Assembly (NCBI GenBank): GCA_002633005.1
Contig: NMRA01000092.1
Span: 777,116 to 841,115 of the forward strand
Direction: 5' to 3'
DNA: 64,000 nucleotides
Source of the DNA: Phoronis australis
Taxonomy: Eukaryota; Animalia; Phoronida
A program made the position numbers and the translations under genes. The notes beneath the pieces are model-generated. The model saw nothing but the letters and a program-made list of their open reading frames with translations. It did no database searches and was not told where the DNA came from. The stretch's first letter is position 1. Each line of letters starts with the position of its first letter. This document shows, in pieces, positions 3,647 through 62,433 of this stretch.

Positions 3647-4046
3647 TGACAATGGCATGGCTGCAGTGACTATGGTATGGCTGCAGTAACAATGGCATGG
3701 GTGCAGTCACAATGGCATGGCTGCAGTAACAATGGCATGGGTGCAGTCACAATGGCATGGGTGCAGTCACAATGGCATGGGTGCAGTCACAATGGCATGG
3801 CTGCAGTGACAATGGCATGGCTGCAGTCACAATGGCATGGGTGCAGTCACAATGGCATGGGTGCAGTGGCTATGGTATGACTGCAGTAACAATGGCATGG
3901 GTGCAGTCACAATGGCATGGCTGCAGTAACAATGGCATGGGTGCAGTCACAATGGCATGGCTGCAGTAACAATGGCATGGGTGCAGTCACAATGGCATGG
4001 CTGCAGTGACAATGGCATGGCTGCAGTGACAATGGCATGGCTGCAG
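3647..4046. repeat. 20-bp minisatellite (AATGGCATGG(G/C)TGCAGT(C/G/A)AC), about 20 units, in GPCR intron
   Basis: Directly visible tandem array; accounts for the repetitive ORFs at 3677-4165. Confidence 0.97.
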
Positions 4047-5634: not shown

Positions 5635-7873
5635 GCCCAAACAATGCCATATAATGAAGTAAAAGGCAAACACAGACGTCAATCAGTCGAGCAGGCCCTT
5701 TAGTCACTTACAGTAGAAATTGATCACTCAACTGCCTTCACGGCTACAGCCTCAGCAAAAACACAAGGTCTTAGAGCAAAATCTAAATGTTCTTCTAAAA
5801 ACATACCTAAATATTTGTGCTCAGCGTTTTTACTTATGTTACACAGGGCAATAGAAAAATGTCCAATATTCGGCAACTTTGGAACATTGTATCTCAGACA
5901 TGGCTGATCGGATTCACTTTCGGATATTATGCACTATGCACTGTTCTCTATGACGCTGTTAGGAATTGTATTTAAAATGTTCCGCTTTTTCATGAGGGGT
6001 TATCAAGTATAGGACTTATAGGATTTTTATGAAAGAAAGTTGCATAAATGTAAAGGAAACGGTAATTTAGAAAACTGCAACAGCGTTTTTTTAAAGATTT
6101 TTATGTAGTTGAACATTTATGTCATACGAAATGTTAGATCCTGTTGTTTTGCCATGAATCTTTTCTTCTTTTTTGCTAAATTTTCTTAAACAATTAGCGG
6201 CACATTGTTATAAAGTCAAAAATCAAATTCTTCAGAGTTTCTGCTTCCAGACAATGTATACATAAATAAATTCTATAGCTTTGTAGACATTTGGTTAAAT
6301 ACATAAACTCATCCATAAGTTCCTTCATAACCTAAAGTGACGTCATACAATAGACAACATGACAGTTATGACGGACGCAGGAGGCCGCGGGGACAGTTTA
6401 GGTATCACAGTATATGGAGATTGGAATTTGCCTTCTAGTACGACGTGTTTGTTCAAGAGTAATGCGATTTGCTAACCAACAGGGCTGAGCTCCGTAGACA
6501 GCAATGCATCGACTCCCACTTGCGGCGAACATTATTCTGTCATGGAGCGGGACCAGTGAATTCAATCCTACAATTTACTGTAACCCCACCGACTAAACGT
6601 TTCAGTAGCCGTCACTTTGGTAGGATAGGCTAGTAATCTCCCGAGCATACCCGCAAAATAGTCGCCATACACTTCCAATATATTTCTTTCACTCGCAAAA
6701 AACGTGGTCTACGGAACGCTCTCCTGGTCTCTGAATTTGAGCAACAAAGACACAAGCGCCTGATAGCCAACTGCAGCCTCTTCGTGTTTTTCAAACATAG
6801 AGATTGAAATCAAATACGTTCTCACAGAAAAAAAAAAACACAAAACATTCAAACAATCCACTGGGTAGGACCAATGCATCACCGTTGAAATATGTTTAAG
6901 CAAATATGTTGGAAATTGATTTTTGACAAGCTGAAATACTTTGTAAATTAACTTTTTGTTTAATGCTGTTGACATTGCACTTCGCGATTAATTTCGAAAA
7001 TATCTTCGCATTGGCAATCAAACAAAAAAATTAAAATTAGCAAGACAATAGAATTTGTATGGATCAACAACGGTTTACAGAGAAGAGTATGTTACAACAA
7101 ACAATTCAGATTCATTTTTGAATTGATACTACATAGAGGTTGGATCCACACCATTCTGAGAATGTCGTCAAAAAGTTTTATTAGCAAAAATCGATCCGTG
7201 GTTGTAGTTTTGCTTGATATTAACTCTCTGGAATGTTGTCCGTTGTGTGGAATGACCTCTGTTTGTGATTTTTATGATACCACAAAGTAATCCCACTCTA
7301 TAATATAACTACACTGCCGGTATATTTGAGCGTACGCCTTTAAAACATTGCATGTAATAAAACCTCGCCCTCGTGACTAACGTAACGTTATGACATACAT
7401 ACACACAGCTTTGAGTCGGAAGTTATTAGCACGGAGCGACTTGACGATTGGTCAATCGGGGTAAAAGTATGTTACATGAAGTTTAAGTAACAATAATGAA
7501 AAAGAAGAACTCCTGGGCTATTAATTATGAAAAATATACAGTTAAAAGTACTATAAACAGCCGGTTTCAACCTGTTCCTCTCAGAGAACTGAAGTGATTC
7601 TGGGCATTGAGAAGACCATACTCGGTGCAGAAATGGGCAGAGAAACATGTCGAAGACTTCTGTTAGTGTAAGTTATTCGGTTCTTACACACGTAACCAAG
7701 GAGCTGGTTTGAACACAACCCCACAGGGAGAAGAGGTTCGCTCACGAGCAGCTCAGGTGTGTCTCAGCCTAAATCTTTACAAATTTGTTCGCTGGGGAGG
7801 GGGAGTGAGGAGACAAATAATAATTTCGCAACCGCCCGTTGCATAACTGGCAAGGTACTTAATTGACACTTAC

Positions 7874-8767
7874 GAAAGACAGGAACAAGTCCAAGACTCC
7901 AGGAACGCACAAGAACATCGCCGTGTCGACAGTGATGAAGAGATTGATGAGGAAGAAAGGCATCCAACAGATGAAGAAGATAAGGAGGACAAGCGCAATG
8001 GTCTTGGTTGCCTTATTATTGTTCTTTTTCGCTCCACCACCGCCACCGAAGTTAGCTTGCGCCTTGTCCATGTCGGCAATTTGCCGCGCGTGCCGCCTGG
8101 CAATCTGAAGTACCCGTATATAGAGCACGAGCAGCACGACGAATGGCACGTAGAAGGAGCACATAGAGGAAGCTATTGCGTAGGCCGGCTTCATGGACGG
8201 CTTACAAAACGGGGTGTCGGGCTGAACGGCAGTGATATAAAAAGACTGCTCGCCCTCAATCTGGTACGCTTCACTTAGGATAGGTCCAAATGAGATTCCT
8301 GCCGCGATAATCCACGCAGTGATAATCATTATCAATGCAACCTTCTTGGTTATGATTTCGTGGTACTGAAATGGTCGCGTGACGGCAATATATCGTTCAA
8401 TAGATATCAAAAGAAGATTATAAATGGAAACAGTTGACAGGCACACGTCAAGACTGAACCACAGCAGGCAGTAATGTCCGAAAGGCCAGACGCCTGAGCC
8501 GAAGTCTTGCACCATGGCAAATGGCATCAAACAAAAACCTACCAGAAAGTCAGTGATGGCAAGATTGATAATGAAATAGTTCGTGATCTTGGTTCGCAAA
8601 GCTTCATACTTTAACACAGCACATATAACGAGTAAGTTACCAAATATGGTGATGACTACCGCGGTGGACAGGATAATCAGTATAAAGTATTTCCAGTCCC
8701 CGAGGTTCACAATTGGCCGGGGATCCCAGCAGTCAGAGCACAGACAATCGCTGGTGTTGTTAGACAT
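7874..8767 (-). CDS. Aminergic class A GPCR (D1-like dopamine / beta-octopamine / H2-like Gs group), coding exon 1 (TM1-TM6, ECL3); spliced product ~345 aa
   Basis: ATG at 8767 (MSNNTS, N-glycosylation sequon); GNxLV, NLAITD, WPFG, D3.32 in SLDV, ERY, TM5 ASSMCSFYVP, CWMPFF; donor TTC|gtaagt after 7874. Confidence 0.92.
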
Positions 8768-11700
8768 ACTAACGGTCGCCAATATTCTCGAAAGAGTTTT
8801 TCACGACAGTCCTTTAAAGTATAGAAACAGACAATTTCGAATGATACCTCTCATACAACCCAACTTGTCGAACAAAATACGAGTGTTGTCAACAACGACA
8901 AAGTATTCAGCAAGTGTACTCAGAAAAGAGCGACGTAGTCACCACTGTTGACGTATGCTTGTTATTAGAACTTTCCGGAGATATTAACCTCAACGATTGT
9001 TTTATTGTTTCCAATGAACTGAACCATTAAATCTAGTACACTCCTTGGCTTGCCATCGATTTGTCCAACAATTAAGCAATAAACGATCGCAATTAGTGAT
9101 CGCTCGCACTTGCAACAATGATTATGGCTCTGTTTCACATTAGTGTTATTCTCAAAATCACGTCTGAAGAACGTCAATGCTTAACTCTGTTTTGTGTTTC
9201 GCAAGTTCTGAAAAAACGAACACCGAAATCCTCTATATGCTCAAAACACACACCCGGACTTTTTTCCGCATCCTCTGGTCACTTGTCCATTAAGAACTAA
9301 TTGCTTGTCGGTAACAACGTCTTTGCTCGTCAATATGCAACTTTCTTGGTTTCCTTCAAAAGTCACGTACTTCGATTAAAGGCTATGTTTAATCTTTGTC
9401 AAAGACACACAGTTCTGCTTGTAAACTAGTTCGATGAATGCCGATCACAAGTTGAGGATTTGTGTATACGGTGAGTGACAAACATGGTCTGCGCCAAACG
9501 TCGATGTTACTATGGCGCGGTTGTTTGCTTAGTACTGGTCTATTGTCCTTTGACGTGCGATCCTGGAGGAAAGAGTAAAAGGTGTATTATTGGTTAATGA
9601 TCGCAATAAAACATTGTCAATAGAGACGGCGATATAAACTTTAAGGCTGATTGAATTTTATAAACCAAGAACGCGTCAATTAAAAAGGAAATTTTCACTC
9701 TCTGGCGTTAATGGCTTGTGTGGTCTCCCAGGAAAGAGATGTTTTTTGAAATAACACGGGCATACAAATGCACGCTTACACAAATAAACATTATGCAAAA
9801 ACCACAAACACTGCTCAGTCGCATAACTCCAATAAATACAGTTTCTACTGACTGAAGTGAGACCTTTTGCACTGACATTTAAAACATGGAGGCAACGGTG
9901 TAGGAAAGAACATTAATTTGTTAAATTCATAGAAATCAAATTCAATTCTGACACTTAGAGTTCAAATAGCACGTGTTAAGGTGTCCATTGTGAAATGGAA
10001 AAGAGAGAAGAGAAAATTCAAATACATGTCCACAGAAGATCTAAGGCTCCCCCAGTCTTAATGGAGACCACGTGGTACAATGTACACAATACTAAATGAA
10101 AAAATAGTGTATCACTACTCGTAATACTATCTTAATATTAAACTTTTTAAAATCGTGTTTTTTAATTACGGATCGTTTAAACTTAGCTTTCCATCACATT
10201 GCAGTTGTACGTCTAAGAAATGAAGTCACTTTTAGCAGTTTTTTCGTTTCTGAAACTTTTCGAAAATTTTTCAATGAGTGCTCCTTTCACAGCATTTCGC
10301 AAAAAATGTTTCGCATTAGTTTGTGAAATTGTTACCGTCACGTGTGTATACTTTAAAAATAGGGCGATTATTACTATTGGTATACATTCCAACACACAGA
10401 AAAATTTGCGAAATGTTGCGGTGAAGTAGACCTCTTGAAGGTATCAGTTTTGACTAGAACTATAGAACAACAAAATCCGTTGTGTTTTAGTGATTTTATT
10501 ACAAATGGCCAATTCTCGCCGCTGGCTGCCAATCATTCGGTGAAATCCAGACCGATGACTCTTATCATTTAAATGCTTTTAAAGTTGCTTGCATTTCGCC
10601 CTGTTTAGCTGAGCAAAAAACGGAGATTGAGCCTTTCACTCCTATATAACTAGTCTCCTAATACTCCTAACCGTGATAGGATCTATTTCCGTTACCAACA
10701 AGACCATTGAAATCCTCAGCCACTTCAAAAAAAAAAAATTCAGAGTATATTGGCGTTTAGGCCAACAATAAAAGTGCGTATTCGAAAAATGCGCATGTAC
10801 GCATTACCTGTGACTTAATTGAATTGCCGACTCATTCCACAAGAATTCAAGATCGGGTGAGTATGATAATGTTGTTAACCCCAAAGTGTTACGTTTAAGA
10901 ATTAATCATAAGCAGCTGAACAGCGGCAAAATGGAACTTTAAAATACTAGACTATTTATCGGATAGAGTATAGCTCCGCTAGCAAAACGTTGGACTGCGA
11001 CCGCTGCGGTTAATCTAAAAAAAAACACTTTTCTCGACCAATTTTATTTCAATAATAAGCAATAAAACGCTTTAATTTTGATTATACCGCGGTCTTCATA
11101 GAAATAAGAGCATCTCGATATCCAAAAATGAGAAAGAAATGTTCTACTTATGATAAAACACATACTTAAAAGGAAATCTTACCTAAAGTGAGCATGGGGA
11201 AGAGAATTATAGAATGTCGGCTTTCATAATGCGATGAGTGTGTTAAATAAATGTTTTTATATTTATACATATTTACACATGTATTCGCGAGTTCACAGCC
11301 AATCATAGCGCCCGGCATTTGCTTGGATACACTATAAAACTGACCAATGAAACGATGTGTTTGCAAGCAACAGATATGTTTTGCTGACCGAGACAGCTTT
11401 ATAGAGCGTGACACGTGTATACTACTTCAATGAACCTCGCATCCTTAATCGCCAGAGGCTACTGTTACGTAACGTAACTGAACAGTAGGCATGCATTGAT
11501 TTTTGATCAGCCACTTCCCAATTCGAACGTTATGATCAATAAATTGCTGTTGGATCGATGGCCATCTTATTTGAAAACGTTGCAATTTATGTATAAAACT
11601 GCGATCATTTTTACTTGCTGACATTTGGTTAATTATATCTTGGTCTTTATAATAATTAACAATTGAGCGATGTATTTTAACCTTTAAAGATGCCTTCTTA

Positions 11701-30630: not shown

Positions 30631-31218
30631 TCTGCCCGTCTGGCTAATCTCCCATGTTCTCGCCGTTCGGGAAAGGAAAAGGAAGTCAATCTACTCGTAG
30701 ACTGGGGGTGAGGATGCATAGATAGAATAATGTTTGCAGAGGGACAATCGATCAAAACCAGCCTGGACGTGTGATTAGCCATCACTGTGAGCCAGCCAGT
30801 CGAGATTATTATGGGTTTAGGGTCTGAACTTGCAAGGAAGCTGGATATCCATCTGTTGATGTCGACATGACCGAATGAGCAACAGCCATTAACGAAAAAT
30901 AACCACCAATCGACCCACCCCTAACAGGGTTAATCAACCGAGGCACAATGGGACCAGCGACAACGATATCTCTGGAGGTAAAGAAATCCTTGAACCATTG
31001 ACGTTCAACAGTTAATAATACTGTCAATAAACTGTTGTCACGCATGGAATCATAGTTGAATTCAACTTTTATTTCACAAACTAAGATTCAACATTTTCAA
31101 CAAAAGATGACGTCATCTAATGCTGACATTGCAGCACGTGTTAGAACGCTTGTTGGATTTTACATCAAGTTTTGTAGACGTGTTTATGTAGTGTTCTCAT
31201 ATAAATCAATCGAAAATT

Positions 31219-31963
31219 ATGGCGACTACAAATTCAATTCCGATTCAACAATCAAATGAGTATGGCGGAAATAATTTTTTCAAAGATGTATCCGAAAATC
31301 ATGATGGAGAGCGTTCGCGTGCCAAATGTCGAAGCCAAATTAATTCTTACAGCGGTACGTCAACTCAAATAATCAACGAGAAGTTTCATCATTTAAAGCA
31401 CCATGATCCAAGTGGGCAAACTACTGGCAGGGAAGCCACATTATCCATAAGTGAAGATGGACGGCAGATGACCAAAGTTTTGACTAGTGCAAGGTTAGAC
31501 TGTGGCAAAGAATCGAGTAGCAACCCTACCGAGTTAAAGGAAGGAGCGAATCAGGCACGTTACAAACAAACACAAGTTCACGCTGGTGCGATGAGAACTC
31601 ACAGTCCTCCAGTCAGTAAGAACTTGACATCTTTGCACAACACGCCGAAGTACGGGTACGCAAATGAGCAACCACATCGTCCAGTCACGCTAAGCTTCCC
31701 ACATCTCAACAAACCAGGACAGCCCAATGCTGCAAAGGTACTGGGTGAGGTGAAGTTAGCTTCGGGATCGCAGCCTTTGACTTCTATATGTCTGACGCGT
31801 GTGAACTCTGTAGGTGCAATGCCGGCACCAAAGAGTGGCCAAAAACCTTTGTTCACTTTCAGTCTCGCCAGACCGCCAGCGTCTTACGCACCTAATACTT
31901 TCGCCGCAATACCAGTTACCGGTTTAGAAGACGACGATTCTTCTCCCTGCAATGTCTTACCAG
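31219..31963 (+). CDS. SoxH: SoxH/Sox30-like transcription factor, exon 1 (low-complexity N-terminus)
   Basis: 278-codon ORF with CCAG|gtgagg donor, phase 1, in frame with the HMG exon. Confidence 0.75.
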
Positions 31964-32123
31964 GTGAGGGGCGGCTTTGCAGAGCTGGAAAATGTCTAAC
32001 AAGTAGTGTGCGCTCGACACAATTCCATTTTTCATACCTGGGATTATTGCCATAAGAGTATCACTCTTTTATGGATTTTACTGAACCGGTTTTATGTTTA
32101 TATCAAAAGGTAATTATTTGTAG

Positions 32124-32378
32124 GTACAAATTCCATTTATCGGACGCCAGGTGCCGTTAACATCAACCGAAGCGGTAACGTAAAGCGACCAATGAACGCC
32201 TTCATGGTCTGGGCCCGGATGTATCGGCCACAGCTGGCAGCTCAGTTCCCAAACGCGAACAACGCGGAGATAAGTGTGCGCCTTGGGCAAGTGTGGAACG
32301 ATATGAATAATGACCAGAAGAAACCGTTTTACGAGGAGTCGGAACGAATAAAGAACCGCCACAAAATGGACCATCCTG
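32124..32378 (+). CDS. SoxH: SoxH/Sox30-like, exon 2 (HMG box)
   Basis: [41 protein letters not shown]...KKPFYEE; WAR..RP.LA...P.ANNAEISV is diagnostic of Sox30/SoxH; ttgtag acceptor, CCTG|gtttgc donor. Confidence 0.95.
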
Positions 32379-32487
32379 GTTTGCAACTTAACTGTTTACG
32401 ATGTATTGGTGGTAATTCAAACATGAAAACATGCCATATTGCCACCAAAATATGCAAAACAAAAATATTCTTCATGTGATTAAGATN

Positions 32488-42088: not shown

Positions 42089-43077
42089 ATCCTGCTAACC
42101 AGTGAGAAACCAGGTTCATCTTCCTTTGACAAAACTACTCTACTACTATTACCATTCGTAGCACCGGGAAAGAATGGACGTTTTCAGTCAGGGGCCCTGC
42201 AGACAATTCAAAATGAAGCACCACCCGAAGACGCCGAAATAACGGGTAGCGCATGCGCTTACTTGCGAGGCTACGAGTAATAGAACAGCACTTGGGTTAG
42301 TGCGTCTTTGGGCTGACATTACGTTTCACAGTGGCTCCGTGACCGCCTGCATATGCTTGTACCCAGATCGTCCGCCTCTATTCCACAATGCAACTGCTAC
42401 CAGCGGCGGCGGCGCATTACGTTAAACTGCAATAAATTTGTGAAAACGTTATTTCCATCATATTGTATGTACAAGCGCATGCTCTAATAAATACTGTCGA
42501 AAAAATCACATTTATCTCATCGCCATCGATGTTTACATCCGTCTGCAAAACGAGCAATAATGACACCTCCAGTCTAAATAATCAAGTTTCCCCAGATCAA
42601 CCTTTCTCTACCTATCCTGTCAAGTTACCGGTTCCTGTTATAATTTGAATACCAACCGACACAGTGTTAACTGCAGGTCTTAATGAGTTTAATATAAGCA
42701 ATCTCAGAATTAACGTTCCTTAAAATTCCAGCGTGATTGTAAAGTGAGAAAACATTCACCGAACAAAAACAGAAGGAAACGAGTTGGAGTCGGAGGTGCA
42801 GGTAAACACACTAGAAGTTAAAAAAGATCATTAAGTTCAATGTCTATACGGCCTCTGTCGCGCCATGGGTTAAAGATCAACGGTTCTTCGCCACGCCCAT
42901 CTGTCGGGCACGTGTGCCCAGGTTGTCCTCATTCGCCAATGTCCAAGTTGAGCCATATTCACTTTCCTAAAAACCTTCAAGCCGTTCTCAGCCATTCCAG
43001 GAGGTTGCGAGGCGCGCCGGAGAGGAATATAGCAAGTGTGAAATCAATTTTCAACTGATTTTGAAACAAATTTCGCA

Positions 43078-43350
43078 ATGGTTCACCAAAAGGGATGTTT
43101 AATTTTATTCGCGGCAGTTATCGTCCTGGTTCCGGTAGCGCTAGCAGCCCCGCAGTGCCCACCATGCGATACACGTTCGTGCCCAGCATTTGACAGAAGG
43201 TCGTGCCTACACGGAATGGCCACCGACCGGTGTCGCTGTTGTTTGGGTTGCGCCCGAGGCCTGGGGCAGCTGTGCAGTGCCTCACGGAAGACGCTGGACG
43301 GTGGTCACTACCACGGACAGTGCGGGAATGGAATGGAATGTCGCAAGAGG
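43078..43350 (+). CDS. IGFBP7/KAZALD1-like gene A, exon 1 (signal peptide + IGFBP N-domain)
   Basis: Hydrophobic leader; CPPC...C...DRCRCCLGCARGLGQLC...GQCGNGMEC cysteine pattern; AGG|gtaagt donor, phase 0. Confidence 0.92.
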
Positions 43351-45241: not shown

Positions 45242-45398
45242 GACGATTTGGGTGTCGGGTACGGCGACGAATGGTTGTGTTACTGCATATCAAAGCAGGA
45301 GGTGTGTGGCACCGATGGCGTGACGTACGACAATCCCTGTCAGATGAGGAAAGCCGGGAGAACGATTCGCACAGCTCACCAGGGTGCATGCAGACAGG
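45242..45398 (+). CDS. Gene A exon 2 (Kazal domain: CYCISKQEVCGTDGVTYDNPCQM...HQGAC); absent from the ORF track
   Basis: tatctag acceptor, G|gtaggt donor, phase 0-1; canonical VCGTDGxTYxNxC. Confidence 0.92.
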
Positions 45399-47574: not shown

Positions 47575-48168
47575 GCGATCGCCTTACATAAGGTTGACCT
47601 TACCTTGTCAAGAGGTGTCGCGTTAACCTGTGAGGAAGGCGAGAAACGATGCAACGAAGTCAGTGGTTCATCTGCAGAGTGAATGCCACTATGTTGCGGT
47701 GCGTCGTTGTCAGAACTATGAAGCTGCGAGGAAAGCGGTAGACTTCCTCGAGAGCCCGAATTGCTTAGGAAGTGGCTCGCGGAAGTGAAGAATGAAAATT
47801 ACGCTGTTAATAGCAAATATGCGGCCGTGAAACATCTCCGTGTCTGTGGCCGGCATTTCGTCGACAGTGATTTCTCTGACGAATGCCAGCTTACCAAAGA
47901 AATATCCGTACGTTCCGTTGCCTGTGCACGTTCACGGCGCCTCTTTTCTTGATCAGTGTATTACGGTTCGAACTGATAGCCTGTAAAACCTAACGACCCA
48001 CCTGTGAAGTCTTCGTCGGATGAGCAGTCCTCCAAGTCAGGGGATTGCGAGTTGCCACGTTGACGTTTATTATTCTGCGTTCTGTTTCGAAATGAATTAT
48101 TCTCACCCTAACCAATGCTTATATAAAACTGAAACAACATCTGTCTCATTAGATACAAATTGTAATGC
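47575..48168 (+). mobile_element. THAP-encoding transposon remnant, left arm of a ~600-bp inverted pair
   Basis: LPREPELLRKWLAEVKNE...HLRVCGRHF; reverse-complement homolog at 50360-50947. Confidence 0.8.
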
Positions 48169-48920
48169 CTTTGTGGTATTCGTGAATGCAAATGTTTTGA
48201 GAAGACAGCATTGAATAAACCACTGCGTTACCGGTTTCAGATGTAATAAAGGTAATTGACCGGGCACCGAGGTCGCGTGAGCGCATGCTAATTCAGTGTT
48301 TGCTGACAGAAAGCTGTTGTGAAACAATTACTCGATTTTAGATGCTACGGTCACATGTTAGGGGAATCTTTATTTAGAAAAACAAATACGTTATTCAAAT
48401 CACTGTTATTGTACAGCTTTTGCCCAGACGGTTCTGTGGCCCGGAAGCCTGTGAGGGGAACCTGACTTCGCGGCCCCCGACAAGTATATGTAGACTTTCA
48501 GTTTCGTGGCTAATTCACCAAAATAACTACGTCACATTATTTCTTTGGCTCACTTTTTGTGACTGGAGGTTTAGTTTCCAACTTAAAGGCGAAGGCAACC
48601 TTTTTCCATGTCATTTTGAGCTAAAATAAGGTTGGTTGGTTATCCTAGACATATTTTCCACTTAATTACAGCTTTTCGTAATTTTATATATTACTCGTCC
48701 GCTACTCCGGAAGTGACGTTTTAGGAGGCAAGCGTTTCCCGCCACTTGGTTTTGCGTTGACTTTACCTTGCGAATCTGTTCTATTCTACTTTTGTTTTGT
48801 GCTGTTTTTCAACAATTGTCGCCACCACTTTCCATCGACGAGTATTCTGCGGCAAGATAGGTTAGTAGAGAACTCAACTACGTTGGATTTAGGGATTGTT
48901 TAGTGTGTTGTAAGCTGAAA

Positions 48921-49225
48921 ATGGCTGGAGTCGGTGACCCGTATCACAGTGACAGTAGTGTGAGTGACGGAGACCTTTTTCACAGCAGTGGTGACGAGGA
49001 ATTTTTTCACGGACATTCAGTGGGTGGGTACATGTTTGAGCCCGAGTATAACGAGGCAGAGTACGCACAGGCACAGGCAGCTGTTGAGAGAAACGAGGCG
49101 GCTACTGAGGACAGACGTGGTGACACATCTTGGTGCAAATGCACTGTGTGCGTTGTTATGCCTACCTCAATGGAATGCTTGTGCTGTTCAGAGTTCGACG
49201 AGGCCAAGCCACTACTGGACATGGT
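48921..49225 (+). pseudogene. KolX-like 5' fragment (Cys-rich, related to P2X7 ballast domain)
   Basis: GYMFEPEY...SWCKCTVCVVMPTSMECLCCSE matches the WCxCxxCxxM...ExxCCxE signature; truncated at the deletion junction. Confidence 0.75.
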
Positions 49226-50016
49226 TAAGTGGACCTCCGGCATACCACGGACAGAGGAACAACTGTCCCACTTGCCAGAGTGTCCCGCGACACACTCCCA
49301 CTGGATGGTGACCTGAGCACCCAAACTGCTTACATCGTGTCGTGTGACTCCCTCGCCACACACCTGGCACCTTCTAAATAGCTCCAACACTTTAGACAAG
49401 TCCACAATAAACTTATCAAAGTTTGGCTCACCGATCTGTTCACTGGACGACGAACTGTCCTCTTCACTGGGTGTCGAACTGAGCCTGTAATCACTCCCAC
49501 TACTCAATATCGCTGCAGGGCTGCTTAGAGGCTCTGGGCTGGAGAAAACAGCACAGGGCGAATCACTACTGGTTCCAGGAATTGCACGCTCTGGGGTACG
49601 TTCGGAGGCACGGGTGACAGTAGATGAAGTGCCTCCACTGGCTCCAGTCACTGTACTGGCCACAGCTCGCGAGGCTTCTCGCTTCAAATACGCACTTCTC
49701 GAGGGTGGCAACGGGGCACTGCCGGTAATCAACACAGACGGAATGATAACCTTCTTCAGACGTTGTTTCGCAGGGACCTTCATCAGTTCAGCGTACAAAT
49801 CTCTTTCGTAATTGGATGGCAGAAAGTGCTTGCCACACACACGGTAATTCTCCACTGCTTTCGGTACGTTGCGTGGACGGGTAACGCTGCGTTCTTTACA
49901 CGAACGAGCCAAGTACGGCGAAGTGTGTCATCCATCGGAAAGCGATGCAAAGGTACTCCCAAAGCGCGCGTGGGCCGATAATTAGTATATCCTGGTACGC
50001 AGCAACAGTGTGGCAT
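49215..50016 (-). pseudogene. Kolobok transposase N-terminal fragment (THAP + Cys/His domain), frameshifted, DDE core missing
   Basis: MPHCCCVPGY..LHRFP..RRTW / YRVCGKHF...IIPSV; S-rich linker; KFIV...LELFRRCQVCG...WECVAGH..W. Confidence 0.8.
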
Positions 50017-50359
50017 ATTGACTGACTAGTAAATGAAAGCAAACGACGACGGAACTTAACACAACCGAGGTAGAACAATGAGTGACTCGGCAGCTCTCAC
50101 AGTCAGACTATATGAAAAGAAATTGGAGCGAAATGCTTGCCTCCTAAAACGTCACTTCCGGAAGAGCGGACGAGTAATTAATATAATTACGAAAAGCTGT
50201 AATTAAGTGGAAAATATGTCTAGGATAACCAACCAACCTTATTTTAGCTCAAAATGACATGGAAAAAGGTTGCCTTCGCTTTTAAGCTGGCTTAGGCGGC
50301 CGCGACGGGCCTGATCGGTTTCCGAGCCACTGGCTGGGATAGCAAGCGTTTTGTGTGTT

Positions 50360-50947
50360 TGCATTACAAATTGTATCTAATGAGACAGACTTTGTTTCAG
50401 TTTTATAGAAGCATTGGTTAGGATGAGAATAATTCATTTTGAAACAAAGCGCAGAATAATAAACGTCTACATGGCAACTCGCCCGGCGCCAATCCCGACT
50501 TAGTCAAGAGCTCATCCGACGAAGACTTCAAGGGTCTGATCGTTCGGTTTCACAGGCTATCAGTTGGAAGCGGAATACACTGATCAAGAAATATTAGAGA
50601 GGCACCGTGAACATGCACGGATAGTTCTTTGGTAAGCCGAAATTCATCAGAAAAATCACTGTCGACGAAATGCCGGCCACAGACACGGAGATGTTTCACG
50701 GCCTCATACTTGCTATTAACAGTGTACCTTTCATTCTTCACAACCGCGAGCCACTAACTAAGCATTTCGGGCTCTCGAGGAAGTCGAAAAAACGATATAC
50801 CCGCTTTTTTCGCGGGAACGATGCACCGCAATATAGCGGCATTCACTCTGCAGACGAACCACTGACGTAGCTGCGTCGTTTCTCACCTTCCTCACAGGTT
50901 AACGCGACACCTCTCGGCAAGATGAGGTCGACCGTATAAGAGGCGAT
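50360..50947 (-). mobile_element. THAP-encoding transposon remnant, right arm of the inverted pair
   Basis: KNERYTVNSKYEAVKHLRVCGRHFVDSDFSDE, paralogous to the ORF at 47761-47952. Confidence 0.8.
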
Positions 50948-52063: not shown

Positions 52064-52204
52064 CTCCAGTCATCATAAGTCCACCAAAGAACGTGAAGAC
52101 TGCTGCTGGATCTTGGATCATGATGACGTGTGAAACCAAGGGCTATCCTCCACCATCCGTCACTTGGGAGTACCGACATGGCGCCACCAGAAGGTCACTT
52201 CCAG
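52064..52204 (+). CDS. Gene A exon 3 (Ig I-set domain, first half)
   Basis: APVIISPPKNV...MTCETKGYPPPSVTW...LPG; tag acceptor, G|gtaaag donor, phase 1-1. Confidence 0.9.
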
Positions 52205-52574: not shown

Positions 52575-52751
52575 GAGGTGACAGGCACATAGCCGCAAAC
52601 TCTCGTGGAGGTCCAGGAAAGTACGGGACTACAGGATTCCTTCAGATAATGGATCTTCAAGCCGAACACAGCGGTGACTATGTGTGTGTCGCGCGTAATC
52701 GCCATGGATCGACCGACGCATCTGCAAGGCTACTGATTACCAGGGATGAAG
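52575..52751 (+). CDS. Gene A exon 4 (Ig domain, second half)
   Basis: GDRHIAANSRGGPGKYGTTGFLQI...GDYVCVARNRHG; RGGP is characteristic of the IGFBP7/KAZALD1 Ig domain; GAAG|gtaaac donor, phase 1, no stop. Confidence 0.9.
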
Positions 52752-53691: not shown

Positions 53692-53991
53692 AGCCCATAT
53701 TGCCCACCTGGCCTGCACACATCTCAGACAATTCAGGTGCCCTCCAGTCAGAATATCGGCCGATGGTGGCAAACTCAGACCATAACCCGGAGCGGCAGTC
53801 CAAACCAACGGCCAAATACACTATGCACTATGTCAACTCACTTCCGTTTGAACAATTTGTGGAGTTGTTTGGTGGCGTTGTCGATAACTGTTCTGTCTGC
53901 GCAGCTGCAACATGGAGTTTGCGGCCATTTTCAGATTCAACGGACTTGCACGACAAAATGATACGATTCGTGGACTCTCTTCCTTCCTACG
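53692..53991 (+). CDS. Linker + OHCU decarboxylase (URAD)-like domain, first half; probable exon 5 of gene A
   Basis: VNSLPFEQFVELFGGVVDNCSVCAAATWSLRPFSD...FVDSLP aligns by eye to URAD VNSMD..EFVDVFGN..E.CPLIAAAVWSQRPFSD; cgtttcag|AG acceptor, phase 1, with ACTAAT ~30 nt upstream; G|gttagt donor. Confidence 0.82.
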
Positions 53992-54368
53992 GTTAGTATT
54001 CTGAAATAAATAAAGACACTATACACTAAAAGCTGCAAAGGATTCAAAATTAGATTGGAACCTATGAGAAATTAATTTGGCCTACAGGATCACCCAAATG
54101 AATTTCTGAAAATAATTAAAATATCTGATGGTGAGGTGTCACATGCCTGTTGAAGCCAATAAAAATCCATAATCAATGAATACTCTTGGAATGAGATACG
54201 CGAACATAGCAACTTTTGTCGGTATTGGTAGACCATGGAACAATTTCAAATATCGTCCAGTACTCTGCAGAAAGTTGGTTTACTTATACCCCCAATGGAT
54301 GGCAATATAGTTAAATCGGTTACAGACAGAACGCGTTCCCTGGGAGAAACTAACTTTTGATTTACACC

Positions 54369-54902
54369 TGTCACGTTTTCCCCGGGTGTGGGTGAGCGCA
54401 GGTGGTTACCGACCGGTGGTAATAGCTTTCGGAGCGACGATAGACCGAGGACTGTCTCGAGTTAATCACTTTATTAATCTCGACCGTACGTTCACAAGCC
54501 TACTCAAACAAAACGTCCGACGTAATGTCTGTTTTATGCTCCAGCCAGTGCTGCGAAGCCTTGACTAGTGATAAACTTCTGAGACACTTTCAGCAACTCA
54601 ACTGTAACTGTAATTCTCTTTAACTTTAACGGATTTTTTCTTTTTAAGTTTAATTGATTTTCAACTAACTTTACTGACGGGTCACAAACCTGTGCGTGGG
54701 TATTTATAGTCACGTAGGCCTACAATATTCTAGAACCTTTCACCAATTTAACCACACATTCTAGAACTTTCCAGAATCAACCCAATCATTCTCCAAATAT
54801 ATACTAGGCTCTAGCATGTTCCAGATTACATTGATCACTTATATGCTAGAATCTTCTAGAATGTTCCAAACTATTCTTTGGTATACAAATGATATCATCA
54901 CA
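54369..54902 (-). mobile_element. Candidate solo LTR (534 bp)
   Basis: Minus strand begins TGTGATG and ends GTGACA; TTCTAGAA-rich U3-like part, then TATAAATA, then AATAAA; no clean TSD. Confidence 0.55.
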
Positions 54903-56247
54903 GTCCTGACCTCAGGGGTCATGCCAATCAATAACTATCTGCTAAAATACACACAGAACAATAGAACAGAATAATTAAACTAAGAACACTGTCAGTCCAC
55001 TCCTGACAAGACCATTTGATTTCAACTTGTCCCTTAGTCTGATGGTCTTGCAACTGATAGCTCGTTATATGTTCGGCCTACATTACAAACGAATTTTGTA
55101 GAGCCTAGCCTCATGTAATAAAGGTCTGCCAGATTTCGTCAAGTCCTCAAACAATTTGATTGTATTTTGACTAAGGAACTATTTGCGACCAGCTTCGTAA
55201 TTACGCTAGATGGTCTAAATCAATCTTTGACGAAAGGGGAGTTTACCCGGTTGAAGAGACACGCTGGGTTTTAAGGTCGAAAAACGCATTTTAGGAATTG
55301 TTGGACGGGATTGACTTTATGAAGATATTAGCTTTGAGCAGAGCTATAAAGTAACAAAATTCGTTACTATGTTTTTTCTAATTTTACATAGGCCTACTTT
55401 TCAGTAAAATTATCTCCCAATTAAGGCGTGGGGTTTTAGCTTCGTCAAGAGTTGAGTGTTTGGCAGTAATGAATATAACTTGCCCGCATTTTGAGAACCA
55501 GTTTTCCCCATTGAATAACATGCATCAAACTGCTATCAGTTCTCGTCGATAATGCCCCTTTAAATAAAATTCTTTCTGTCATTCGAATGTGTACGGCTGA
55601 ACACCAATGTCACTTTTTAGATGAAATAACGCCTAAAATAAGCGGTGTCGCAGTCAATAATAAGAGATAAATCTATATCTAAGATGACACTGTTAAACAC
55701 ACGTTGGGGTGTTATTGCAGCTATAAAGCCAACAAGGCTCTGCGTTCAAAGCAGAAGGTTTGCTATGCACTGGTCTGAAACTGTCGGGGCAACAGCATTC
55801 ATGTGTTTTAGCTGAAGTTTTCATTTCCGAATGGCCAATTCACATAAGTGTAAAAAACAACTATTTTACTGGTTTGGTTACAAAGCATTTGCCCGCAGGA
55901 AATGACTTCGTCTAGGTTTTTATAAGTTTTGGCATTCTAAGACTCACTTGGCCAACAAGTAATTGTAAGAAAGCAAGCGATTTTCCCTAGTAATGGGAAG
56001 TACTGTTTTTATATACAAAGATTTCTTCAAACGCAGGCTATGTATATTTAATTGACTTCATAAAACCATTGGATTGGGTGTTATTTTTCAAATATTGTAA
56101 AATAGTTTAAACCCGTTTAACACAGGTCTCTATTAAAAAGATTCATTCACTTAGTCACCTGATGCGTTCCCTGGCGTGAGAAACAGAAGCAAAAGATGAT
56201 GCTTGGTGAAGTTCGTAATTTAATTGTCTTTCTTTCGTTCGTCGCAG

Positions 56248-56552
56248 GGCAAGAGGGGATTCTACGTTTGTTCTCAGGACTGAAAGCGCTATCTCAGCCC
56301 CAGTTCCTGTGGAGTGAAAATGAGCGCCAGGCTTTACAGGAGAGAGATGCCAGATATAGGAGCCGGTTTAATTTCCCGCTCATCCTGGACAATTCTCCCC
56401 AGTCCGGTTTCCAATCGCTGCTCGACCAGGCCGACAGCCGAATGAGAGCCAGTCCTCAAGAGGAACTGAAGCGAAGCCTAGCGACCGTCAGGGCAATCAT
56501 AACCTCTCGAATATGCCAAATGATTGACGACAAGAACAATTTCAAAGCATGA
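56248..56552 (+). CDS. URAD-like domain, second half; probable last exon of gene A
   Basis: GQEGILR...ERQAL...YRSRFNFPLIL...SPQEELKRSLATVRAI..SRI; gtcgcag acceptor, phase 1; TGA at 56550-56552. Confidence 0.85.
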
Positions 56553-56823
56553 CCGTCCCTATACTACTAAGAACATATTTCCGTCATATGACAAAGAAAG
56601 AGAAAGTAGTAACCTCTAAGCAACGTTATTTTTGCTAAAGCACAACGGGCGTTGAACGTCAGCTAGGCCTACTTGCGTCAACTTTTCTAGTATTTTTATG
56701 AGCGCTGCCCCAGAAATCGCTTTCGCACTATATCCAGGTTCTCATTCCCTTTCATACACTCACTAGTAAGACCGAGCTCAGAGGAGTAGAGGACGCATTT
56801 GTGATATGCTTGTCTGCCAGTAA

Positions 56824-56884
56824 GGCCAGGATTCGATCCCGGGTCTCCGAAAAGGGAGCCCGGAGCTCTAACCAATGAGCCTCA
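56824..56884 (-). mobile_element. tRNA-derived SINE head
   Basis: Minus strand GGCTCATTGGTTAGAGC (A box/D arm) ... GGATCGAATCC (B-box-like). Confidence 0.55.
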
Positions 56885-57405
56885 ATGTTGTTTAGTCGGC
56901 GAGCAATGTTTGGGAGTGGCTTCGAAATCGAATAGAAAGTATGAGACAAGTTTAGTATGTGTCTTATAATCTAATTTAGAGAAAATAATTACCGTGCAAG
57001 ATGGTGTACTAGACGCCAGTTTAGACAATCACGTTTCCTTCAATGTTGGTACCGATCTGAAGAATTTGGTGTCAGTTAACAAAAACAGACACCACTTGGA
57101 AGAATGTGCTTGGGCCATCATTCAATACTCCTGACATATCAGTCGAGTTCTTGGCTACGGCTTATCAGGGCGCGGGATTGTGAAAACACTCCTCCTCCAT
57201 GTCCCAAAACAGTGACTGCAAACGAAAGCGTAAAGATGGCTTTACGATGAGCTTTGGCCATTTGCAATTTATATCAACGATATTAGGAGAACTACAAAAG
57301 CACGTGACTTGACAAAGTACAGGTGATGCTGTCGTCAACAATGAGCTGTTTTCTTATTCCTAACATCGGACTGCCAAGACACATAAACAAAACCACACCA
57401 GTTAT

Positions 57406-60887: not shown

Positions 60888-61160
60888 ATGGCCATCAAAT
60901 TGTTGTGCCTCGCCATCGCGGCGACTTGTTGGTTGTTCAGTGTTGTCAGCTCACAAAGGTTCCCAGCCGACTGTCCAAAGTGTAGAGCCGATCTCTGTCC
61001 GCCGATCAAGGAGGACTCGTGTGGGGCAGGAATGACATTGGACAAGTGTGGTTGTTGTAATGTGTGTGCCCGTGGCCACGGGGAGCTGTGTACTCACCCC
61101 AAGGTCAAGTCCAGTTTCCACTACGGCCAATGTGGTGCTGGGCTGGAGTGCAGAGTGAGG
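60888..61160 (+). CDS. IGFBP7/KAZALD1-like gene B, exon 1 (signal peptide + IGFBP N-domain)
   Basis: Leader peptide; DKCGCCNVCARGHGELC...YGQCGAGLEC; AGG|gtaagt donor. Confidence 0.93.
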
Positions 61161-62264
61161 GTAAGTAAAGACGGTGTGTTGATGCTTTTTGCTAACTAAC
61201 TTGGCGTATTGCTCGATATCAAGATCACGCGCCATAAACTAATTAAAAAATAGAATTAACAATTCCTGAAGTTCATTGCGTAGCGTGGTTTATATTTGGT
61301 GGAGACCTTTGGTACAAGGATCACCCCTCACCAGGTGTTTAGTATTTTACAATGTCATGTCCTGGCTGTGTACAATAGTCAGTCGTTTCTGTGTGATATT
61401 GTGGCCGCAGTGTTTTTGAAGAAATACCACTGAATTATGTTAATGTTTGGTTCGCAACTGAAGCCTGGGAAATGAATGAAATATGACTTCTGTCTTTAGC
61501 CAACTTACACACTGGCTCACTGTCACTGTTTGGATTTTTTATTTTCCTTTTAGTCAGCGAGACGGGCATTGTCTATATACGAGAGTGATTTAGTATCCAA
61601 TATAAGCAAATATACTATATCTATAAAATCTTTGATATAAGTGCACGACGCCATTTGCTGAAACACAGCATGCTGTCCCGGCATGCATGCCGCTTCGGAT
61701 AATTAATGCGACCTGTCTTTCTGTGATGTGTTTGTGTTCATTTGCTATGCGTAATCAGGGGTACGACGCCTGCCAGCATTCCGTTGTGAACGAAATTGTT
61801 TTTGTAATGGTCACTTCATCGTTTAAAGTCTATTCAGCATCATCTTCAACTCTATTTTTAGAGCGGATTTTTAAGCATTCTTTCATGCGGCGACTTTCAA
61901 GTCTCTATATAAAAACGTCAAAACGTTCTTAATTTGCTGGATCGAACTATGAATGGTCTATAAAGAATACTTGTGTTACTGATACTTCTGCGACTAGATT
62001 CGCCGGTGCAAATCCAATTTTTTGTTTTGACTGAAAATAGCTTCAAACTCCACGGAAATTGTGTTTTCTTGAAGGTATCTGGCACACGGCATTTCGTGAT
62101 GTCATTTTACGGGTTGCTGCCTCATTTTTATCAGAGAGCTAACTCGAGAATTGTGAACGTAAACAATCCTTGCATGTAAAAAAAGATAATCCATGGATGT
62201 GACCATAATTTTAAAATGAGTGGCAGAGAACAACACTGCATCTGTTGCTCTATTTTATTTTCAG

Positions 62265-62433
62265 ACTGACCTGCGGGACACCACCAAGCTAGAGTCAATC
62301 TGTTACTGCATGAAGGATGGTTTGGTGTGTGGCACCGACGGTAACACGTACCCCAACGTGTGTCAGCTGATGTATGCCTCCGTGGTTGGTGGAAAAGAGA
62401 TTAAAGTAGCGAAAAAAGGCATCTGCAAAAGTG
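62265..62433 (+). CDS. Gene B exon 2 (Kazal domain); gene continues beyond the window
   Basis: ttttcag acceptor; CYCMKDGLVCGTDGNTYPNVCQL...KGIC; G|gtaaga donor, phase 1. Confidence 0.92.

What the first reader, a model, noticed from the sequence alone, without database searches (positions are those of the whole stretch)
53823..56552. The URAD-like domain looks like a maintained pseudoenzyme
Seen: after the conserved GQEGILR the sequence reads LFSGLKALSQPQFLWSENER, where characterised OHCU decarboxylases have (C/A)HPDLAG...SxxEQ..AGL. The catalytic His is replaced, and roughly 16 residues including the SxxEQ glutamate motif are missing within one exon, so a missed exon cannot explain it. The C-terminus (-FKA) is not a PTS1. 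Flanking helices (WSLRPFSD, YRSRFNFP, EELKRSL) and both exon frames remain intact. Inference: selection keeps the fold but not catalysis, and a canonical URAD gene probably exists elsewhere in the genome.
Basis: partly seen in the sequence, partly recalled or inferred. Interest (0 to 1): 0.75.

Follow-up and report, generated by a model that had tools for sequence, protein, structure and literature searches.

The report
Dead urate enzyme fused to Kazald
In this invertebrate, a copy of a uric-acid-breakdown enzyme that has lost its active-site residues is spliced onto the end of a Kazald (IGF-binding-protein-like) gene whose product is predicted to be secreted; the domain is likely kept as a non-enzymatic structural module, possibly to pair the protein up, and we found no such fusion elsewhere.

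Summary
The two URAD-like exons are the last two of a six-exon, 450-aa gene: predicted signal peptide, IGFBP, Kazal, Ig (a Kazald), a 44-aa linker, then the OHCU-decarboxylase-like domain. RNA reads show the three 3' splice joints (30-40 reads each in one run) and no extra exon in the URAD intron. The catalytic His is gone, the SxxEQ segment is deleted (16 residues) and the FPFVICAR strand is altered. The decay is one-sided: 15 of 17 family-conserved positions are kept in the N-half, 18 of 44 in the catalytic C-half (p=0.001). The frame stays open to the natural end, and the C-half model still matches zebrafish URAD (Z 12.1, rmsd 2.2). The ancestral URAD intron is kept, which points to a DNA-level duplication. 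Best reading: a dead enzyme domain kept by selection, most likely as a dimerising module; dimerisation is inferred, not tested. No fused relative was found in four protein searches or in the papers searched. Orthologs, dN/dS and a second, canonical URAD could not be tested. New variant of a known kind; interest 0.5.

The parts
43078..43350 (+). Exon 1: predicted signal peptide (aa 1-23) and IGFBP domain
   Evidence: Pfam PF00219 E=6.9e-08; hydropathy 2.04 for aa 1-23; stranded RNA depth in the bin 42600-43265. The joint to exon 2 is predicted from GT-AG and frame; it was not among the joints printed.
45242..45398 (+). Exon 2: Kazal domain
   Evidence: Pfam PF07648 E=7.2e-09; 34 reads of X4 carry the end of this exon as a loose end before 52063
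52064..52204 (+). Exon 3: first half of the Ig (I-set) domain
   Evidence: Pfam Ig_3 E=1e-07; joint 52204>52575 in 33 reads of X4
52575..52751 (+). Exon 4: second half of the Ig domain with the Kazald RGGP...TG.LQI signature
   Evidence: Pfam I-set E=2.4e-05; IGFBP7 (9zhh) matches residues 1-54, E=2.7e-07; signature seen in Kazald peptides of PMC12955574 supplement 4; joint 52751>53692 in 40 reads of X4, 2 of X2, 3 of X3 and a contig of X1
53692..53822 (+). Exon 5, 5' part: 44-aa linker, predicted unstructured, probably recruited from sequence upstream of the old URAD start
   Evidence: No secondary structure, pLDDT 56-72; origin inferred from the Met at 53823 matching the start of standalone URADs such as P0034
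53823..53991 (+). Exon 5, 3' part: N-half of the URAD-like domain (four helices), well conserved; holds Cys316 (53889-53891, zebrafish Cys25) and an N-glycosylation sequon at Asn315
   Evidence: phmmer to zebrafish 2o70 E=2.5e-12, 25 of 54 identical by my count; 15 of 17 conserved positions kept; pLDDT 88-97; Cys and sequon positions
53992..56247 (+). Intron 5, phase 1, at the ancestral URAD intron position
   Evidence: GT-AG, joint in RNA; 84 of 105 database fragments that stop matching here have Gly at this position, 75 of those 84 followed by a residue fitting intron read-through
56248..56552 (+). Exon 6: C-half of the URAD-like domain and stop; active-site loop degraded at 56268-56312 (His lost, 16 residues missing)
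   Evidence: Pfam PF09349 covers only profile 89-154; 18 of 44 conserved positions kept; model matches 2o70_F 60-168, Z 12.1, rmsd 2.2, 93 aligned, 22% identical
56553..56900 (+). 3' UTR (approximate; the end is not defined)
   Evidence: Stranded read depth continues to about 56900
60888..62433 (+). Tandem Kazald-like paralog, exons 1 (60888-61160) and 2 (62265-62433); the rest lies beyond the window
   Evidence: Pfam IGFBP E=9.7e-10 and Kazal E=1.8e-08; joint in 232, 44 and 41 reads of X4, X2, X3

Best explanation
The URAD-like exons are the expressed, spliced C-terminal domain of a Kazald (IGFBP-Kazal-Ig) protein that is predicted to be secreted; the domain lacks the catalytic residues and is likely kept by selection as a non-enzymatic helical module, most probably one that pairs two copies of the protein. 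Shown: the gene structure, the splicing of Ig exon to URAD exons, the loss of His and SxxEQ, the one-sided decay. Inferred history: a URAD gene was copied as DNA, with its intron, behind one of two tandem Kazald genes; a phase-1 acceptor upstream of the old URAD start joined it to the Ig exon and turned upstream sequence into the linker; once exported from the cell the domain no longer met its peroxisomal pathway, and the pocket half drifted while the other half stayed fixed. Inferred function: URAD is a homodimer, so the module would make a two-armed Kazald with higher avidity for its extracellular ligands. My odds by step: fusion real 0.97, no decarboxylase activity 0.95, domain kept by selection 0.8, dimerisation as the reason 0.45.
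For: Splice joints in RNA. Active-site losses H67, P68, D69, E83, S84, E87, Q88, G92, F119, C122, R124; a review assigns proton transfer to the conserved His and bond destabilisation to the conserved Gln (PMC13751858, passage). Asymmetry: 15 of 17 against 18 of 44 conserved positions, Fisher p=0.0012 (p=0.0035 without gapped columns); terminal branch 0.63 for the N-half against 1.7-1.8 for the C-half, medians of other tips 0.52 and 0.39-0.45; against zebrafish URAD, which was not picked by the N-half search, 46% against 22%, whereas among canonical URADs the C-half is the more conserved (46% against 38%). Neutral simulation: at 1.0-1.1 extra changes per site the exon stays open in 204 and 183 of 5000 runs, without counting indels. 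All 5 coding differences listed in the RNA are at third positions, 4 silent (p=0.02). Models of both halves are helical and URAD-like. Zebrafish URAD is a homodimer burying 2300 A2 per monomer with Cys25 and Cys66 at the interface (PMC5445154 section 17); the kept block (about residues 3-65) includes Cys25 and runs up to Cys66. IGFBP7 works through oligomer avidity (PMC13510594 abstract and Results part 1).
Against: No ortholog was found, so constraint rests on one sequence against distant paralogs. None of the 5 coding differences lies inside the URAD domain itself (one is in the linker), so they speak for the gene, not the domain. The reference URADs came from a search with the N-half, which inflates N-half identity. 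At a smaller excess (0.25-0.5 changes per site) the frame stays open in 12-30% of neutral runs. Cys66 is replaced by Leu, and a new sequon at Asn315 sits beside Cys316, where a glycan could block the dimer face (4 of 125 parsed relatives have it). Only two interface residues are known to me from text; the full interface was not mapped. Cys25 is common in the family (91 of 125), so keeping it is weak evidence. The AlphaFold models used URAD alignments and lean towards that fold; Foldseek E-values were only 0.02-0.06. The signal peptide rests on hydropathy, not on a predictor.
Confidence: 0.5

Rival explanations
1. The dead domain is kept, but as a new binding surface (for a protein, glycan or matrix component) built in the fast-changing C-half, in the way transthyretin arose from HIU hydrolase.
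For: The C-half changed about three times faster than the N-half yet kept its frame, length and helical pattern; fast change can reflect adaptation. The HIUase-to-transthyretin precedent is described in PMC13751858 (passages).
Against: No partner or conserved new surface is shown; without orthologs, adaptation cannot be told from relaxation.
Confidence: 0.22
2. The domain is a passenger: a fairly recent fusion that is tolerated and decaying, kept in frame only because a misfolded or frameshifted tail would harm the Kazald part, or by chance.
For: No fused relative in four searches; lower expression than the tandem paralog (joint reads 41 against 232 in X4, 2 against 44 in X2, 3 against 41 in X3); long branch (1.94).
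Against: Neutral decay should hit both halves; the N-half shows no excess. A stop in a last exon would simply shorten the tail, yet the frame runs to the natural URAD end after much change, and both length changes seen in the alignment (minus 16, plus 1 residue) are in frame.
Confidence: 0.17
3. The domain still binds a purine breakdown product (allantoin, urate or OHCU) and makes the Kazald protein respond to it.
For: The fold is kept; standalone URAD-like proteins without the His but with the rest of the pocket exist in corals, a sea star and amphioxus, and the window groups weakly with the sea-star one (72/90).
Against: Here the pocket itself is removed: SxxEQ is deleted and the FPFVICAR strand changed. 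The grouping is on a long branch and is not repeated in the N-half tree.
Confidence: 0.07
4. The domain is still an active OHCU decarboxylase with relocated catalytic residues, or the fusion is an assembly or annotation artefact.
For: Pseudoenzyme calls from sequence are sometimes wrong (general knowledge).
Against: Exon 6 contains no His at all. RNA reads from three runs and one contig support the joints and list no indel in the exons.
Confidence: 0.04

Closest known systems
Kazald family (Kazald1-4; invertebrate 'IGFBP-rP1/IGFBP7-like'), PMC12955574
   Same: IGFBP-Kazal-Ig order, four exons for these domains, RGGP...TG.LQI signature in the Ig domain.
   Different: Two extra exons add a linker and a URAD-like domain. 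The Kazald peptides in that paper's supplementary file 4 end shortly after the Ig domain in the part I read (part 1 of 6), and the whole file holds none of five short URAD motifs.
OHCU decarboxylase URAD (Pfam PF09349; zebrafish 2o70/2o73)
   Same: Fold (Z 12.1, rmsd 2.2, 93 aligned), N-half sequence, intron position, domain length apart from the deletion.
   Different: No catalytic His, no SxxEQ, altered pocket strand, no PTS1, fused behind a predicted signal peptide and three extracellular domains.
Urah-Urad fusions (allantoin synthase, plant TTL, diatom 5z5m), PMC13751858 section 8
   Same: URAD as one domain of a longer chain.
   Different: Those join consecutive enzymes of one pathway and keep activity; here the partner is a signalling or matrix protein and the enzyme part is degraded.
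Transthyretin from HIU hydrolase; reptilian CRUOX from uricase (PMC13751858 passages; PMC10517255 abstract)
   Same: An enzyme of urate breakdown put to another use; for transthyretin also loss of catalysis with the scaffold kept.
   Different: Those are whole proteins with known functions; this is a single-species domain fusion with no function shown, from the third enzyme of the pathway.
Standalone His-less URAD-like proteins (Patiria XP_038067026, Branchiostoma XP_035678159, Pocillopora XP_058950687) and weakly active human URAD
   Same: Catalytic His replaced (Tyr, Phe or Leu in 6 of 20 hits that continue into the C-half), or activity reduced with the fold kept (human; PMC13751858 sections 18-19).
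   Different: Five His-less ones scored keep 30-42 of the 44 conserved C-half positions against 18 here, keep the SxxE segment, and are not fused.

Membership tests
Kazald family | IGFBP, Kazal and Ig-like domains in this order | tested here: met
   Pfam on each exon; definition in PMC12955574 methods passage
Kazald family | Four-exon layout of these domains | tested here: met
   Exons 1-4; two of their three joints seen in RNA. The paper defines this for vertebrates; intron phases were not compared.
Kazald family | Closer to Kazald than to IGFBP7 by reciprocal best hit or tree | not tested
   No Kazald sequence was available as a stored protein; comparison with the supplement was by eye
Kazald family | Secreted (signal peptide) | tested here: inconclusive
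   Hydrophobic N-terminus, hydropathy 2.04 over aa 1-23; no signal-peptide predictor was available
OHCU decarboxylase (URAD) fold family, PF09349 | Profile score above the curated cut-off | tested here: met
   26.4 and 33.8 bits against 24 for exons 5 and 6
OHCU decarboxylase (URAD) fold family, PF09349 | All-helical URAD fold | tested here: met
   C-half model: the eight best VIA rows are OHCU decarboxylase structures or their homolog Atu2327, Z 8.2-12.1, next row 3.3; N-half four helices. Halves were folded apart, with URAD alignments.
Active OHCU decarboxylase (EC 4.1.1.97) | Catalytic His in HPDL | tested here: not met
Active OHCU decarboxylase (EC 4.1.1.97) | SxxEQ segment (Glu87, Gln88) | tested here: not met
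   16-residue shortfall; gap also implied by 93 aligned over chain 60-168
Active OHCU decarboxylase (EC 4.1.1.97) | Peroxisomal targeting signal PTS1 (animal URADs) | tested here: not met
   C-terminus; zebrafish has a weak PTS1 (PMC8919083 passage)
Active OHCU decarboxylase (EC 4.1.1.97) | Decarboxylation of OHCU to (S)-allantoin | not testable with these tools
   Needs an assay
Active OHCU decarboxylase (EC 4.1.1.97) | Homodimer | not tested
Pseudoenzyme (maintained dead enzyme) | Expressed with an intact frame | tested here: met
   (RNA only; protein not shown)
Pseudoenzyme (maintained dead enzyme) | Purifying selection across orthologs | tested here: inconclusive
   No orthologs found; indirect signs

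The most novel reading that the evidence does not exclude
The third enzyme of urate breakdown has been recruited, dead, into the extracellular space as a dimerisation or binding module of an IGF-binding-type protein: a transthyretin-like rebirth of URAD by exon capture, conserved in an undersampled invertebrate lineage and giving that Kazald paralog a new valency or ligand.
Probability: 0.4. Interest if true: 0.7.

Novelty: new variant of a known kind. Interest (0 to 1): 0.5.

Why it matters
The URAD fusions described in the review I read all join enzymes of purine breakdown, and the Kazald proteins surveyed in print end after the Ig domain. A secreted, dead URAD domain would be the first non-metabolic use of this fold that I could find, beside transthyretin (from HIU hydrolase) and reptilian skin uricase. 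It offers a natural experiment on what URAD can do without catalysis, a question the 2026 review raises for the nearly inactive human URAD (PMC13751858 section 18), and a clear case of a cytosolic or peroxisomal enzyme captured as a module of an extracellular protein, with the splice phase, old start codon and old intron still readable.

Tried and rejected
Whole-genome search for a canonical URAD: no genome is held; tblastn of 12 URADs finds only these two exons in the window at meaningful scores. Word-index protein searches with exon 6, the exon 5 N-half and an alignment of the two IGFBP exons, all for longer proteins: 0 of 224, 0 of 1 and 0 of 385 candidates passed E 0.01; the third shows that this index does not even reach ordinary Kazald relatives, so the blanks are weak. 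phmmer of the N-half over 1.84 billion representatives: 132 hits; by reading them none carries IGFBP, Kazal or Ig; the 462-aa hit P0102 that looked like an ortholog is a THAP-URAD model from a seadragon with its His intact. ESM Atlas: exon 6 gave unnamed clusters below the recognition threshold, exon 5 only OHCU_decarbox clusters under 0.8; no use. Run search listed no RNA holder by index; the raw-read runs laid afterwards carry the evidence. Primary structure papers: French and Ealick 2010 not held; Cendron 2007 seen only as a reference entry. Paper searches (listings only, except the papers cited): no listed paper holds 'OHCU decarboxylase' with Kazal or IGFBP (20 of 462 listed), and one search found 0 papers with all three terms. 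Scan notes: nothing by place, sequence or the fusion words. Descent from the sea-star His-to-Tyr paralog: weak, not repeated, left open. Retrocopy origin: rejected, the ancestral intron is kept. Missed exon: rejected. Host taxon: not settled; the Ig loop looks by eye most like leech and oyster Kazald, the URAD tree leans weakly to a sea star.

Full report
Gene context. The finding's coordinates cover the last two exons of a longer gene on the + strand. Six exons with GT-AG ends give one open frame of 450 aa. Pfam on the single exons gives IGFBP, Kazal, Ig (two exons) and OHCU decarboxylase (two exons), each above its cut-off. The first 23 residues are hydrophobic, as expected of a signal peptide (inferred). 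IGFBP-Kazal-Ig in four exons is the Kazald layout (PMC12955574, passages), and the Ig exon carries the RGGP...TG.LQI signature seen in that paper's peptide file (part 1 of 6 read). A second Kazald-like gene starts at 60888. The organism is an invertebrate bilaterian by these genes (inference); I could not narrow it further.

The fusion is real. Reads of three raw RNA runs (X2-X4; about a fifth of each was read) and contigs of X1 were laid on the locus. Joints 52204>52575, 52751>53692 and 53991>56248 stand in 33, 40 and 30 reads of X4 and in 0-3 reads of X2 and X3; 34 reads carry the Kazal exon end before 52063; the reads are stranded for a + transcript; no indel is listed in the exons; non-repeat intron bins have next to no depth. 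The exon 1-2 joint was not among the 15 of 157 joints printed and stays predicted. The fusion gene has fewer joint reads than the paralog: 41, 2, 3 against 232, 44, 41.

The observation. The spacing from GILR to the conserved Tyr is 29 residues against 45 in 8 of 9 His-bearing URADs and 44 in one. In zebrafish numbering His67, Pro68, Asp69, Glu83, Ser84, Glu87, Gln88, Gly92, Phe119, Cys122 and Arg124 are changed or missing (the residue-level pairing around 119-124 depends on a one-residue gap). Exon 6 has no His. Loss of activity is therefore a strong prediction, not a measurement.

Is it maintained? Four indirect tests. (a) At positions shared by at least 7 of 9 His-bearing URADs the domain keeps 15 of 17 in the exon 5 half and 18 of 44 in the exon 6 half, p=0.0012. 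(b) On one fixed tree of 16 sequences its terminal branch is 0.63 for the N-half and 1.77 (1.68 without the ambiguous stretch) for the C-half, while the rest of the tree has the same length in both. These references came from an N-half query, which favours the N-half; zebrafish URAD, an independent reference, gives the same picture (46% by my count; 22%), and canonical URADs are more alike in the C-half. (c) Simulated neutral change of exon 6 leaves the first 88 codons open in 183-204 of 5000 runs at the estimated excess, but in 605-1513 of 5000 at 0.25-0.5 changes per site, so this test depends on the distance estimate. (d) The 5 coding differences listed in the RNA are all at third positions and 4 are silent, but none is inside the URAD domain. 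AlphaFold models with URAD alignments give four confident helices after an unstructured linker for exon 5 and pLDDT 78 for exon 6, lowest over the altered loop (59-65); the exon 6 model matches zebrafish URAD at Z 12.1, rmsd 2.2 over 93 residues, with Foldseek ranking only OHCU decarboxylase structures and their homolog Atu2327 at the top but at E 0.02-0.06. Together these favour selection on the fold, chiefly on residues about 3-65, at roughly 0.8.

How it arose (inferred). 84 of 105 database fragments that stop matching after the N-half have Gly at the position of this intron, mostly followed by residues that fit intron read-through, so the intron is the ancestral URAD intron and the copy was made as DNA, not from mRNA. 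The Met at 53823 lines up with the start of standalone URADs. The Ig exon ends in phase 1 and exon 5 begins in phase 1. The simplest history is exon capture behind one of two tandem Kazald genes. Whether catalysis was lost before or after fusion is open: His-less standalone URAD-like proteins exist in corals, a sea star and amphioxus (6 of 20 continuing hits), and the window groups with the sea-star one at 72/90 on a long branch but not in the N-half tree.

What it does (inferred). Zebrafish URAD is a homodimer with a large interface that includes Cys25 and Cys66 (PMC5445154 section 17). The kept block includes Cys25 (Cys316 here) and the helix leading to Cys66, and stops just before the catalytic loop. 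The related IGFBP7 acts through oligomers that bind heparan sulfate with high avidity (PMC13510594 abstract and first part of Results). A dimerising tail would therefore be a useful addition, and I rank it first. Against it: Cys66 is Leu here, a sequon at Asn315 could place a glycan at that face, the N-half may be kept simply as the folding core, and the complex prediction could not be run. A new binding surface (0.22), a tolerated passenger (0.17), ureide sensing (0.07) and activity or artefact (0.04) are the rivals.

Comparison and novelty. It works like a pseudoenzyme module and is a member of the URAD fold family and, by domain order, of the Kazald family; it is not a member of the active OHCU decarboxylases. 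No fused relative turned up in three word-index searches (weak) or among 132 phmmer hits from 1.84 billion representatives. The urate-pathway review has no occurrence of IGFBP or Kazal; the Kazald paper has none of URAD, OHCU or decarboxylase in its main text or of OHCU and decarboxylase in its nine held supplements. Subscription papers and bioRxiv supplements could not be seen. Verdict: a real, apparently undescribed domain fusion with a dead enzyme domain, known so far from one species and without a shown function. New variant of a known kind; interest 0.5.

Noticed in passing
window 60888-62433 (+): Second Kazald-like gene in tandem, with about 6 to 20 times more joint reads than the fusion gene; its Ig exons lie beyond the window, so whether it also carries a URAD domain is unknown.
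   Followed up: partly
window 47578-50947 (intron 2 of the fusion gene): Transposon-like element with long nested inverted arms around a 306-aa frame at 49010-49927 (-) with a weak THAP match (E=0.013); heavily covered by diverged RNA reads.
   Followed up: partly
proteins P0113/P0139, P0034, P0112, P0002, P0114, P0117: Standalone URAD-like proteins without the catalytic His in corals (Tyr; a 111-member cluster), Patiria (Tyr), Branchiostoma (Phe) and unnamed sources; they keep most of the pocket and may be an undescribed pseudoenzyme group.
   Followed up: partly
proteins P0102, P0133: THAP-domain plus intact URAD in one model in two seadragon species; real fusion or annotation merge not checked.
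   Followed up: no
window 31192-32476 (+): HMG-box (Sox-like) gene exons (Pfam E=1.6e-21); a 197-bp tandem duplication flanks the N at 32487, perhaps an assembly join.
   Followed up: no
window 7862-8800 (-): Rhodopsin-type GPCR exon (Pfam 7tm_1 E=7.2e-56), apparently continuing near 1571-1801.
   Followed up: no
window 3647-4046: Tandem repeat array seen in the self-comparison and as repetitive frames.
   Followed up: no
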